Source of the DNA: the human T2T-CHM13v2.0 reference genome, Homo sapiens
Direction: 5' to 3' (one strand)
DNA: 64,000 nt
Assembly: GCF_009914755.1 (NCBI RefSeq)
Contig: NC_060925.1
Below are positions 36,309 to 64,000 of this stretch, piece after piece (position 1 is the first letter of the stretch; every line of letters starts with the position of its first letter). Both the position numbers and the translations under genes were made by a program. Below the pieces are notes generated by a model. It was not told the origin of the DNA. It ran no database searches and saw nothing but the letters and a program-made list of their open reading frames with translations.

Positions 36309-39300
36309 TTTTTTTTTTAATACTTTAAGTTTTAGGGTACATGTGCACAACGTGCAGGTTAGTTACATATGTATACATGTGCCGTGTTGGTGTGCTGCAC
36401 CCATTAACTCGTCATTTAACATTAGGTATATCTCCTAATGCTATCCCTCCCCCTCCCCCCACCCCACAACAGGCCCGGTGTATGATGTTCCCCTTCCTGT
36501 GTCCATGTGTTCTCATTGTTCAATTCCCACCTATGAGTGAGAACATGCGGTGTTTGGTTTTTTCTCCTTGCGATAGTTTGCTGAGAATGATGGTTTCCAG
36601 CTTCATCCATGTCCCTACAAAGGACATGAACTCATCATTTTTTATGGCTGCATAGTATTCCATGGTATATATGTGCCACATTTTCTTAATCCAGTCTATC
36701 ATTGTTGGACATTTGGCTTGGTTCCAAGTCTTTGCTATTGTGAATAGTGCCACAATAAACATACGTGTGCATGTGTCTTTATCGCAGCATGATTTATAAT
36801 CCTTTGGGTATATACCCAGTAATGGGATGGCTGGGTCAAATGGTATTTCTAGTTCTAGATCCCTGAGGAATCACCACACTGACTTCTACAATGGCTGAAC
36901 TAGTTTACAGTCCCACCAACAGTGTAAAAGTGTTCCTATTTCTCCACATCCTCTCCAGCACCTGTTGCTTCCTGACTTTTTAATGATCGCCATTCTAACT
37001 GGTGTGAGATGGTATCTCATTGTGGTTTAGATTTGCATTTCTCTGATGGCCAGTGATGATGAGCATTTTTTCATGTGTATTTGGCTGCATAAATGTCTTC
37101 TTTTGAGAAGTGTCTGTTCATATCCTTCGCCCACTTTTTGATGGGGTTGTTTGTTTTTTTCTTGTAAATCTGACTGAGTTCATTGTAGATTCTGGATATT
37201 AGCCCTTTGTTAGATGAGTAGATTGCAAAAATTTTCTGCCATCCTGTAGGTTGCCTGTTCACTCTGATGGTATTTCTTTTGCTGTGCAGAAGCTCTTTAG
37301 TTTAATTAGATCCCATTTGTCAATTTTGGCTTTTGTTGCCATTGCTTTTGTTGTTTTAGACATGAAGTCCTTGGCCATGCCTATGTCCTGAATGGTATTG
37401 CCTAGGTTTTCTTCTAGGGTTTTTATGGTTTTAGGTCTAACATTTAAGTCTTTAATCCATCTTGAATTAATTTTTGTATGAGGTGTAAGGAACAGATCCA
37501 GTTTCAGCTTTCTACGTATGGCTAGCCAGTTTTCCCAGCACCATTTATTAAATAGGGAATACTTTCCACATTGCTTGTTTTTATCAGGTTTCTCAAAGAT
37601 CAGATGGTTGTAGATATGGGACATTATTTCTGAGGGCTCTGTTCTGTTCCATTGATCTATATCTCTGTTTTGGTATCAGTACCATGCTGTTTTGGTTACT
37701 ATAGCCTTGTAGTATAGTTTGAAGTCAGGTAGCGTGATGCCTCCAGCTTTGTTCTTTTGGCTTAGCATTGACTTGACAATGCGGGCTCTTTTTTGGTTCC
37801 ATATGAACTTTAAAGTAGTTGTTTCCAATTCTGTGAAGAAAGTCATTGGTAGCTTGATGGGGATGGCATTGAATCTATAAATTACCTTGGGCAGTATGGC
37901 CATTTTCACGATATTGATTCTTTCTACCCATGAGCATGGAATGTTCTTCCATTTGTTTGTATCCTCTTTTATTTCATTGAGCAGTGGTTTGTAGTTCTCC
38001 TTGAAGAGGTCCTTCACGTCCCTTGTAAGTTGGATTCCTAGGTATTTTATTCTCTTTGAAGCAATTGTGAATGGGAGTTCACTCATGATATGGCTCTCTG
38101 TTTGTCTGTCATTGGTGTATAAGAACGCTTGTGATTTTTGCACATTGATTTTGTATCCTGAGACTTTAATGAAGTTGCCTATCAGCTTAAGGAGATTTTG
38201 GGCTGAGACGATGGGGTTTTCTAGATATACAATCATGTCATCTGCAAACAGGGACAATTTGACTTCCTCTTTTCCTAATTGAATACCCTTTATTTCCTTC
38301 CCCTGCCTGATTGCCCTGGCCAGAACTTCCAACACTATGTTGAATAGGAGTGGTGAGAGAGGGCATCCCTGTCTTGTGCCAGTTTTCAAAGGGAATGCTT
38401 CCAGTTTTTGCCCATTCAGTGTGATAGTGGCGTGGGTTTGTCATAGCTAGCTCTTATTATTTTGAGATACGTCCCCTCAATACCTAATTTATTGAGAGTT
38501 TTTGCATGAAGCGTTGTTGAATTTTGTCAAAGGCCTTTTCTGCATCTATTGAGATAATCATATGGTTTTTGTCGTTCTGTTTATATGCTGGATTATGTTT
38601 ATTGATTTCCATATGTTAAACCAGCCTTGAATCCCAGGGATGAAGCCCACTTGATCATGGTGGAGAAGCTTTTTGATGTGCTGCTGGATTCGGTTTACCA
38701 GTATTTTATTGAGGATTTTTGCATTGATGTTCATCAGGGATATTGGTCTAAAATTCTCTTTTTTTGTTGTGTCTCTGTCAGGCTTTAGTATCAGGATGAT
38801 ACTGGCTTCATAAAATGAGTTAGGGAGGATTCCCTCTTTTTCTATTGTTTGGAATTGTTTCAGAAGGAATGGTACCAGCTCCTCCTTGTATCTCTGGTAG
38901 AATTCGGCTGTGAATCCATCTGGTCCTGGACTTTTTTTGGTTGGTAAGCTATTAATTATTGCCTCAATTTCAGAGCCTGTTATTGGTCTATTCAGAGATT
39001 CAACTTCTTCCTGGTTTAGTCTTGGGAGGGTGTATGTGTCAAGGAATTTATCCATTTCTTCTAGATTTTCTAGTTTATTTGCATAGAGGTGTTGATAGTA
39101 TTCTCTGATGGTAGTTTGTATTTCTGTGGGATAGGTGGTGATGTCCCCTTTATCATTTTTTATTGTGTCTATTTGATTCTTCTCTCTTTTCTTCTCTATT
39201 AGTCTTGCTAGCGGTCTATCAATTTTGTTGATCTTTTCAAAAAACCAGCTCCTAGATTCATTGATTTTTTGAAGGGTTTTTTATGTCTCTATGTCCTTCA

Positions 39301-41786
39301 GTTCTGCTCTGGTCTTAGTTATTTCTTGCCTTCTGCAAGCTTTTGAATGTGTTTGCTCTTGCTTCTCTAGTTCTTTTAATTGTGATGTTAGGGTGTCAAT
39401 TTTGGATCTTTCCTGCTTTCTCTTGTGGGCATTTAGTGCTATAAATTTCCCTCGACACACTGCTTTGAATGTGTCCCATAGATTCTGGTATGTTGTGTCT
39501 TAGTTCTCATTGGTTTCAAAGAACATCTTTATTTCTACCTTCATTTCCTTATGTATCCAGTAGTCATTCAGGAGCAGGTTGTTCCTTTTCCATGTGGTTG
39601 AGCGGTTTTGAGTGAGTTTCTTAATCCTGAGTTCTAGTTTGATTGCACTGTGGTCTGAGAGACAGTTTGTTATAATTTCTGATCTTTTACATTTGCTGAG
39701 GAGAGCTTTACTTCCAACTATGTGGTCAATTTTGGAATAAGTGCAGTGTGGTGCTGAGAAGAATGTATATTCTGTTGATTTGGGGTGGAGAGTTCTGTAG
39801 ATGTCTATTAGGTCCGCTTGGTGCAGAGCTGAGTTCAATTCCTGGATATCCTTGTTAACTTTCTGTCTTGTTGATCTGTCTAATGTTGACAGTGGGGTAT
39901 TAAAGTCTCCCATTATTATTGTGTGGGAGTCTAAGTCTCTTTCTAAGTCTCTAAGGACTTGCTTTATGAATCTGGGTGCTCCTGTATTGGGTGCATATAT
40001 ATTTAGGATAGTTAGCTCTTCTTGTTGAATTGATCCTTTTACCATTTTGTAATGGCCTTCTTTGTCTCCTTTGATCTTTGTTGGTTTAAAGTCTGTTTTA
40101 TCAGAGACTAAGATTGCAACGCCTGCCCTTTTTTGTTTTCCATTTGCTTGGTAGATCTTCCTCCATCCCTTTATTTTGAGCCTATGTGTGTCTCTGCACG
40201 TGAGATGGGTTTCCTGAATACAGCACACTGATGGTTCTTGACTCTTTATCCAATTTGCCAGTCTGTGTCTTTTAATTGGAGCATTTAGCCCATTTACATT
40301 TCAGGTTAATATCGTTATGTGTGAATTCGATTCTGTTATTATGATGTTAGCTGGTTATTTTGCTCTTTAGTTGATGCAGTTTCTTCCTGCATGGTCTTTA
40401 CAATTTGGCATGTTTTTGCAGTGGCTGGTACCAGTTGTTCCTTTCCATGTTTAGTGCTTCCTTCAGGAGCACTTTTAGGGCAGGCCTGGTGGTGACAAAA
40501 TCTCTCAGCATTTGCTTGTCTGTAAAGGATTTTATTTCTCCTTCACTTATGGAGCTTAGTTTGGCTGGATATGAAATTCTAGGTTGAAAATTCTTTTCTT
40601 TAAGAATGTTGAATATTGGCCCCCACTCTCTTCTGGCTTGCAGAGTTTCTGCCGAGAGACCAGCTGTTAGTGTGATGGGCTTCCCTTTGTGGATAACCCG
40701 ACCTTTCTCTCTGGCTGCCCTTAACATTTTTTCCTTCATTTCAACTTTGGTGAATCTGACAATTATGTGTCTTGGAGTTGCTCTTCTCGAGGAGTATCTT
40801 TGTGGCGTTCTCTGTATTTGCTGAAGTTGAATGTTGGCCTGCCTTGCTAGATTGGGAAGTTCTCCTGGATAATATCCTGCAGAGTGTTTTCCAACTTGGT
40901 TCCATTCTCCCTGTTACTTTCAGGTACACCAATCAGACGTAGATTTGGTCTTTTCACATAGTCCCATATTTCTTGGAGGCTTTGTCGTTTCTTTTTATTC
41001 TTTTTTCTCTAAACTTTTCTTCTCACTTCATTTCATTCATTTGATCTTCCATCACGGATACTCTTTCTTCCAGTTGATTGAATCGGCTACTGAGGCTTGT
41101 GCATTCGTCACATAGTTCTTGTGCCTTGGTTTTCAGCTCCATCAGGTCCTTTAAGGACTTCTCTGCATTGGTTATTCTAGTTAGCCATTCATCTAATTTT
41201 TTTTCAAGGTTTTTAACTTCTTTGCCATTGGTTCTACCTTCCTCCTTTAGCTCAGAATAGTTTGATCATCTGAAACCTTCTTCTCTCAACTCGTCAAAGT
41301 CATTCTCCATCCAGCATTGTTCCGTTGCTGGTGAGGAGCTGCGTTTCTTTGGAGGAGAGGCGCTCTGATTTTTAGAGTTTCCATTTTTTCTACTCTGTTT
41401 TTTCCCTATCTTTGTGGTTTTATCTACCTTTGGTCTTTGATGGTGGTGACGTACAGATGGGGTTTTGGTGTGGATGTCCTTTCTGTTTGTTAGTTTTCCT
41501 TCTAACAGTCAGGACCCTCAGCTGCAGGTCTGTTGGAGTTTGCCGGAGGTCCACTCCAGACCCTGTTTGCCTGGGTATCAGCAGCGGAGGCTGCAGAACA
41601 GCAGATATTGGTGAACAGCAAATGTTGCTGCCTGATCATTCCTCTGGAAGTTTTGTCTCAGAGGAGTACCTGGCCGTGTGAGGTGTCAGTCTGCCCCTAC
41701 TGGGGGGTGCCTCTCAGGCTACTCGGGGATCAGGGACCCACTTGAGGAGGCAGTCTGTCCATTCTCAGATCTCCAGCTGCGTACTG
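36309..41786 (-). mobile_element. L1PA4-like element lacking roughly the first 645 nt of its 5' UTR
   Basis: ORF2 fragments (37259-40228, including LFADDMIVY) and ORF1 (40398-40739); 16-bp TSD ggaattgctgaatctt at 36293-36308 and 42076-42091. Confidence 0.92.
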
Positions 41787-63700: not shown

Positions 63701-64000
63701 ACTTTCTTCACAGAATTGGAAAAAACTACTTTAAAGTTCTTATGGAACCAAAAAAGAGCCCGCATCACCAAGTCAATCCTAAGCCAAAAGAACAAAGCTG
63801 GAGGCATCACGCTACCTGACTTCAAACTATACTACAAGGCTACAGTAACCAAAACAGCATGGTACTGGTACCAAAACAGAGATATAGATCAATGGAACAG
63901 AACAGAGCCCTCAGAAATAATGCCGCATATCTACAACCATCTGATCTTTGAGAAACCTGATAAAAACAAGCAATGTGGAAAGGATTCCCTATTTAATAAA
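60699..64000 (+). mobile_element. L1PA3-like element with a 5' inversion (60699-62667 antisense; 62667 onward sense); runs off the window
   Basis: EN ORF 61322-62161 and ORF1 62225-62566 on the - strand; RT region (LFADDM) on the + strand after 62667. Confidence 0.92.

What the first reader, a model, noticed from the sequence alone, without database searches (positions are those of the whole stretch)
37540..64000. Two different-age L1s about 22 kb apart share private mutations, including the same ORF2 stop codon: local gene conversion
Seen: both EN-domain ORFs end at an identical premature stop, ...FFETNEN* (TAA at 39500-39502 and 61322-61324). Canonical ORF2 continues NENKDTT, and older in-window L1s have AAA there (about 26891). 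Both copies also share KIKGDK (usually R), KKLLHH (usually I; 38665 / 62873), ctgcaagc, gactaagatt, gatggttctt and attctaggtt. Three variants fall within about 25 bp and give [13 protein letters not shown] (37561-37600 / 63941-63983). Elsewhere the copies differ at subfamily-type sites (gcctcaatttcagagc vs gccacaatttcagatc; acaatttggcatgttt vs acattttggcatgatt; agctcc vs agttcc). Inference: an ORF2-null allele is unlikely to have spread in cis, so patchy inter-locus gene conversion, across both direct and inverted segments, is the simplest explanation. This implies repeated pairing of the two loci.
Basis: partly seen in the sequence, partly recalled or inferred. Interest (0 to 1): 0.75.

Follow-up and report, generated by a model that had tools for sequence, protein, structure and literature searches.

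The report
Neighbouring LINE-1 copies swapped short patches
Two dead LINE-1 jumping-gene copies of different age, 22 kb apart in an intron of the human DNAH14 gene, share about a dozen rare mutations, most likely because DNA repair copied short patches between them; other neighbouring LINE-1 copies show the same pattern, so this is an ordinary example of a known process.

Summary
Both L1 copies carry the TAA stop, which occurs in 6 exact 31-mers genome-wide against 4,632 with AAA. They share 8 non-CpG alleles seen in none of 51 other copies over 4,419 sites (1.8/kb); none of 948 distant pairs reaches that. A sublineage is refuted: the 4 other TAA copies carry none of the other shared alleles, and the pair keeps different subfamily alleles at 37 of 47 diagnostic sites. 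Each shared allele sits in an identical run of only 27-133 bp, which fits old, short-tract non-allelic gene conversion. The pair is not special. In 47 control L1s on chr1, private-allele sharing falls from 0.57/kb (under 100 kb) to 0.064/kb (over 10 Mb). Genome-wide, carriers of the same rare allele lie 7-110 kb apart in 11 pairs against 0.9 expected. Distance-dependent ectopic conversion is already described for Alu and for the human genome in general. The stop has no functional meaning, since both copies are broken anyway. Direction and dates of the exchanges are not established.

The parts
36312..41787 (-). L1 copy A: older L1PA-type element, about 5.5 kb, lacking the start of the 5' UTR, ORF2 broken at several places; lies in a DNAH14 intron antisense to the gene
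   Evidence: no clear long target-site duplication seen; DNAH14 from the hub's gene table
60699..62673 (-). L1 copy B, inverted 5' part (end of ORF1 to mid ORF2); same orientation as A 38876-40848, 94.5% identical, 21.8 kb away
62667..64000 (+). L1 copy B, 3' part (runs on to about 65240 plus poly-A, beyond the window); inverted relative to A 36312-38871. 5'-inverted (twin-priming type) insertion with an 11-12 bp target-site duplication
   Evidence: 'twin priming' is a recalled label
39500..39502 (-). Shared TAA stop in A (partner 61322-61324), in a 29-bp identical run
61322..61324 (-). Shared TAA stop in B
39683..39815 (-). Best conversion patch: 133-bp identical run holding shared rare alleles 39745 and 39744 and old-type alleles in both copies at 39761 (partner about 61505-61637)
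37562..37618 (-). 57-bp identical run with three shared rare alleles (37592, 37583, 37568), partner 63926-63982 on the opposite strand
40047..40658 (-). Further shared rare alleles 40641, 40581, 40235, 40111, 40069 in runs of 29-107 bp, separated by native subfamily differences (40413-40289, 40169)
38640..38696 (-). 57-bp identical run with shared allele 38665 (partner 62873), inverted segment

Best explanation
Two separately inserted L1 copies of different age share about 14 rare alleles in short identical patches, most likely because homologous repair in the germline repeatedly used one copy as a template for the other without crossover (non-allelic gene conversion). Shown: separate insertions of different subfamily type, an excess of shared private alleles, short patches, both relative orientations, and the same distance-dependent excess in other L1 pairs. 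Inferred: breaks in or near one copy invade the nearby 95%-identical copy, tracts of roughly 30-150 bp are copied, and later mutation breaks them up. At least two pairings and probably about 10 events occurred, touching very roughly 10-25% of the shared 4.5 kb. Crossovers would delete or invert DNAH14 exons 52096-58026, so mainly non-crossover products would survive (inference).
For: 8 private non-CpG doublets in 4,419 sites; 0 of 948 distant pairs reach that rate. Native subfamily alleles are kept at 37 of 47 diagnostic sites; A and B differ at 39% of 109 polymorphic sites, while their nearest panel relatives differ at 12-13%. Identical runs around 13 shared sites average 70 bp against 44 bp at random positions (p 0.002, sites not independent). 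Divergence dips at 39651-39950 (2.3% vs 4.6-5.7% expected) and 37551-37850 (3.7% vs 6.2-6.4%). No panel copy of 52 carries more than 2 of the 14 alleles. Control pairs show the same decay with distance (1 of 20,000 permutations), also among cross-age pairs alone (0.38/kb under 110 kb vs 0.06/kb beyond 2 Mb). Genome-wide, 11 of 5,591 same-allele pairs vs 5 of 30,994 control pairs lie 7-110 kb apart.
Against: The longest identical run (133 bp) is within the chance range, so no single tract is significant on its own. Switches at diagnostic sites (A 4 of 39, B 3 of 39) lie within the leave-one-out range of panel copies (0-7 of 20-39), so donor direction and two-way exchange are not established. 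Several shared alleles stand alone in runs of only 27-36 bp, and one or two may be coincidental. No GC bias is visible (4 weak-to-strong, 7 strong-to-weak, 3 neutral among 14; read). No ape orthologue, other human haplotype or raw read could be examined.
Confidence: 0.85

Rival explanations
1. B was a chimera from birth: during its insertion the reverse transcriptase or the repair step borrowed patches from nearby copy A (DNA, or RNA from the DNAH14 transcript).
For: B is a complex 5'-inverted insertion; the best-supported patch (39740-39761) has old-type alleles in B; direction calls the other way are weak.
Against: It needs about 10 short switches across two oppositely oriented segments in one event. 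Ordinary uninverted neighbour pairs show the same excess. Four sites give A the young-type allele.
Confidence: 0.06
2. Both copies descend from one rare source lineage, or B is a local daughter of A.
For: Close same-age pairs share the most (1.26/kb under 110 kb), which local descent could explain for those pairs.
Against: A and B differ at 37 of 47 subfamily sites. The other 4 TAA copies carry 0 of the other shared alleles. The hit lists for TAA, IFEKPDK and KIKGDK overlap only at A and B.
Confidence: 0.03
3. Assembly or polishing artefact that mixed reads of the two copies.
For: Raw reads were not available here.
Against: The copies are only 95% identical with a difference about every 20 bp and no long identical run; each keeps 47-58 singleton alleles; the effect extends to pairs 100-300 kb apart.
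Confidence: 0.03
4. Coincident independent mutation.
For: The TAA arose independently in 4 other copies and the KIKGDK change in about 55.
Against: About 0.5 doublets are expected against 8 seen; different alleles at the same site do not cluster in space (0 of 3,989 pairs within 110 kb).
Confidence: 0.02

Closest known systems
Non-allelic gene conversion between neighbouring Alu elements (Aleshin and Zhi 2010; paper not held; known here only through passages of PMC8230782 and PMC6598467)
   Same: Neighbouring retroelement copies share non-diagnostic mutations, more so the closer they lie.
   Different: Here the elements are 5-6 kb L1s, and the excess reaches about 100-300 kb rather than the roughly 10 kb reported for Alu.
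Genome-wide ectopic gene conversion decaying with donor-acceptor distance (Steyaert 2026, bioRxiv 10.64898/2026.08.26.747289; abstract and passages read)
   Same: Short homologous templates; signal falls with distance, steepest between 100 kb and 10 Mb, near background beyond 10 Mb, as in my chr1 panel; extends outside segmental duplications.
   Different: That work uses segregating variants and de novo mutations. Its main text has 0 hits for 'L1PA' or 'Alu', and its supplements were not read. Here the footprints are in one reference, between two named L1 copies.
Non-allelic gene conversion in human gene duplicates (Harpak et al., bioRxiv 10.1101/135152; abstract only)
   Same: Short non-crossover tracts; small net effect on overall divergence.
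   Different: Mean tract 250 bp and strong GC bias there; surviving identical runs here are 27-133 bp and 14 sites show no GC bias.
L1-L1 homologous rearrangements (TEMRs; PMC9675761, passages read)
   Same: Homology-directed events between L1 copies of about 93.5% median similarity.
   Different: Those are deletions, duplications and inversions; here the DNAH14 exons between the copies are annotated in order.

Membership tests
Non-allelic gene conversion between TE copies | Two paralogous copies of independent origin | tested here: met
   Different subfamily alleles at 37 of 47 sites; B has its own target-site duplication; self-alignment ends at the L1 borders
Non-allelic gene conversion between TE copies | Shared derived alleles in excess of chance and not explained by descent | tested here: met
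Non-allelic gene conversion between TE copies | Sharing confined to local tracts | tested here: met
   Runs of 27-133 bp between native differences, mean 70 vs 44 bp; local divergence dips; no single run is significant alone
Non-allelic gene conversion between TE copies | Non-reciprocal transfer with an identifiable donor and acceptor | tested here: inconclusive
   Both copies carry the derived allele, which fits one-way copying, but diagnostic-site switches are within panel noise; no outgroup orthologue
Non-allelic gene conversion between TE copies | Rate falls with genomic distance | tested here: met
Non-allelic gene conversion between TE copies | GC-biased resolution | tested here: inconclusive
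   4 weak-to-strong, 7 strong-to-weak, 3 neutral among 14 sites; too few sites, and the mutational input is not corrected for
Non-allelic gene conversion between TE copies | Confirmation in orthologous loci, other haplotypes or reads | not testable with these tools
   The genome has no relatives here
Dispersed L1PA sublineage | Several dispersed copies carry the same allele set | tested here: not met
   At most 2 of 14 alleles in any of 52 copies; TAA copies carry only the TAA
Segmental duplication or assembly collapse | Long near-identical stretch including flanks | tested here: not met
   95% identity, longest identical run 133 bp, no flank alignment

The most novel reading that the evidence does not exclude
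Young human L1 copies routinely convert their neighbours over a range ten or more times longer than reported for Alu (about 100-300 kb), in either orientation and across subfamilies, rewriting on the order of a tenth of each copy. L1PA pairs would then be a genome-wide fossil record of germline ectopic repair and chromatin contact, and a systematic bias in L1 dating and lineage trees. I found no L1-specific quantification in 9 literature searches, but subscription journals are largely missing from the library.
Probability: 0.4. Interest if true: 0.5.

Novelty: new member of a known kind. Interest (0 to 1): 0.25.

Why it matters
The locus itself matters little: both copies are dead and the shared stop changes nothing. 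It is a clear worked example that neighbouring L1s are not independent mutation clocks. If the general pattern holds in a full analysis, shared 'private' alleles between nearby L1s would mislead source-lineage inference, dating and short-read variant calling. They would also give a way to measure how far ectopic repair reaches along a chromosome.

Tried and rejected
Sublineage: rejected by exact-pattern counts and by typing the four other TAA copies. One long or recent conversion tract: rejected, because the longest identical run is within chance and native differences interrupt the shared alleles. Two-way conversion as a firm claim: not supported by the leave-one-out control. A locus-specific hotspot: not needed; control neighbours L047/L048 (6 doublets in 4,781 sites, 20 kb) and L058/L059 (6 in 4,903, 54 kb) are of the same order. 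Rows dropped: L019 and L020 (near-identical to L018) from all counts; L016 (99.4% identical to L015) from then on; 12 of 1,081 pairs with under 1,000 shared sites; A and B from the list. Strand labels printed were mistyped for some loci and are not used. Whether the 11 genome-wide close pairs are local duplications could not be checked. A search for DNAH14 + deletion + LINE-1 gave 2 listings, neither read. The pangenome L1 preprint PMC13192797 (passages) recombinant full-length L1s but has no hit for DNAH14 and one passing mention of gene conversion.
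Full report
Anatomy. Copy A is an L1 of about 5.5 kb on the minus strand (36312 to about 41787). It lacks the start of the 5' UTR and its ORF2 is broken into several frames. 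Copy B is a 5'-inverted insertion: 60699-62673 matches A 38876-40848 in the same orientation (94.5%), and 62667 to about 65240 matches A 36312-38871 in the opposite orientation (94.5-95%). An 11-12 bp target-site duplication flanks B. By the hub's gene table both lie in DNAH14 introns, with four exons between them. On 116 polymorphic sites, A groups with older panel copies and B with younger ones. They differ at 39% of 109 such sites, while their closest panel relatives differ from them at 12-13%. Subfamily names such as L1PA4 or L1PA5 would be recalled labels and were not tested.

Observation. The cited features are present. The stop-containing 31-mer occurs 6 times in the genome and the AAA form 4,632 times. 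The two-variant IFEKPDK 26-mer occurs 3 times and the KIKGDK 28-mer 57 times. The three hit lists overlap only at A and B.

Control panel. I used the first 50 of the 4,632 listed places (chr1, 3.5-60 Mb; 30 as 3-kb loci, 20 as 6.8-kb loci) plus the 4 other TAA copies, after dropping near-identical duplicates. A and B share 14 alleles that are rare in the panel. Eight non-CpG ones are seen in no other copy over 4,419 sites (1.8/kb). None of 948 pairs more than 2 Mb apart reaches this (maximum 1.71/kb). In one search, before the CpG mask and with the duplicate L016 still in, 2 of 1,079 pairs equalled or exceeded it: the duplicate pair and the neighbours L058/L059. The four other TAA copies carry none of the other shared alleles, and no copy of 52 carries more than 2 of 14. 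A dispersed sublineage is therefore excluded as far as these counts reach.

Pattern along the elements. At 47 sites that separate A-like from B-like copies, 37 keep the native difference, 4 give A the young allele, 5 give B the old allele (2 at CpG) and 1 has a third base in both. The shared alleles lie in identical runs of 27-133 bp, mean 70 bp against 44 bp for random positions (p 0.002; several share a run). The longest run is within the chance range of 85-159 bp. Divergence dips at 39651-39950 and 37551-37850 but not elsewhere. Overall A-B divergence is 5.05%, against 5.2-6.1% for A versus 12 B-like copies and 5.1-6.5% for B versus 10 A-like copies. This fits about 10 short, old patches covering very roughly 10-25% of the shared length (inference from 8 doublets against 58 and 47 singletons). 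Against my first reading: the switch rates (4 of 39 and 3 of 39) are inside the leave-one-out range of panel copies (0-7 of 20-39), so two-way exchange is only suggested. The best direction call is A to B at 39740-39761.

The pair is not unique. Among 47 positioned control copies (1,069 pairs), private doublets per kb were 0.57 under 100 kb (10 pairs), 0.51 at 100-200 kb (8), 0.28 at 200-500 kb (13), 0.11 at 0.5-2 Mb (90), 0.097 at 2-10 Mb (333) and 0.064 beyond (615). One of 20,000 permutations reached the first value. The decay holds for cross-age pairs alone, though weaker (0.38, 0.16, 0.083, 0.060) than for same-age pairs (1.26, 0.74, 0.18, 0.11). Three of the 10 closest pairs had no doublet. 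For the 7 near pairs with 6.8-kb loci that I aligned, the main alignment stops at the L1 ends at 91-97% identity, so they are separate insertions as far as the short flanks show. As an independent test I listed all carriers of rare alleles at three conserved sites chosen without regard to A and B (53, 69 and 94 hits), plus the KIKGDK list without A and B (55). Same-allele pairs lay 7-110 kb apart in 11 of 5,591 cases, against 5 of 30,994 control pairs (0 of 3,989 different-allele, 5 of 27,005 cross-site); 0.9 were expected. Six of the 11 are in opposite and five in the same orientation. Caveats: three of the 11 come from one trio, the 110-kb edge was set after seeing a pair at 100,029 bp, the 110-300 kb bin showed no excess (2 vs 1.3), and local duplication was not excluded for these pairs.

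Mechanism. Most likely germline homologous repair with the neighbouring copy as template and a non-crossover outcome. The two segments of B have opposite orientation relative to A, so at least two pairings are needed. Crossover would delete (direct segment) or invert (inverted segment) DNAH14 exons, so such products would probably be lost; this is inference. The stop codon is a passenger, because A is broken elsewhere and B's ORF2 is split by its inversion. Rivals are a chimera at B's birth (0.06), common descent (0.03), assembly artefact (0.03) and coincidence (0.02).

Comparison with what is known. Sharing of non-diagnostic mutations between neighbouring Alus, within about 10 kb and falling with distance, is reported (passages of PMC8230782 and PMC6598467; the primary paper was not held). 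A 2026 preprint reports genome-wide ectopic conversion in humans with a decay steepest between 100 kb and 10 Mb (10.64898/2026.08.26.747289; abstract and passages; supplements not read, and they might break the signal down by repeat class). Harpak et al. give a mean tract of 250 bp and a small net effect on divergence (10.1101/135152; abstract). L1-L1 homologous rearrangements at about 93.5% similarity are documented (PMC9675761; passages). Nine searches gave no paper on this locus and no L1-specific distance curve.

Verdict. Interest 0.25. The L1-wide distance pattern seen in the controls is the part worth a full analysis.

Noticed in passing
L012-L061 (chr1 panel) and G000 hits: Neighbouring L1 copies in general share private alleles, decaying over about 0.1-0.5 Mb, in both orientations and across subfamilies.
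   Followed up: partly
G000:C8:47796013, 47863072, 47879033: Three L1 copies within 83 kb carry the same rare allele: a conversion chain or a local duplication.
   Followed up: no
L042/L044 and L054/L056: Pairs about 250-280 kb apart share clustered private alleles in identical runs of 247 and 289 bp, longer than any A-B run.
   Followed up: partly
G000:C3:140113310: The only third carrier of the two-variant IFEKPDK 26-mer; not in the TAA or KIKGDK lists.
   Followed up: no
L029 and L040: Two copies 10.9 Mb apart and 6.6% divergent share 5 private alleles in 2,930 sites, the highest distant pair.
   Followed up: no
window 58654-60698 and L007 after about 5270: Copy B appears to sit inside an old DNA-transposon remnant; the frames at 58654-58965 and 59495-59821 look Tigger-like (recalled resemblance).
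   Followed up: no
window 1594-5956, 25516-30059, 42892-46046: Three older L1s at 65-82% identity to A and B, in both orientations; not tested for exchange.
   Followed up: no
L015/L016 and L018/L019/L020: Near-identical L1 copies, probably within segmental duplications on chr1; duplicates removed from the controls.
   Followed up: partly
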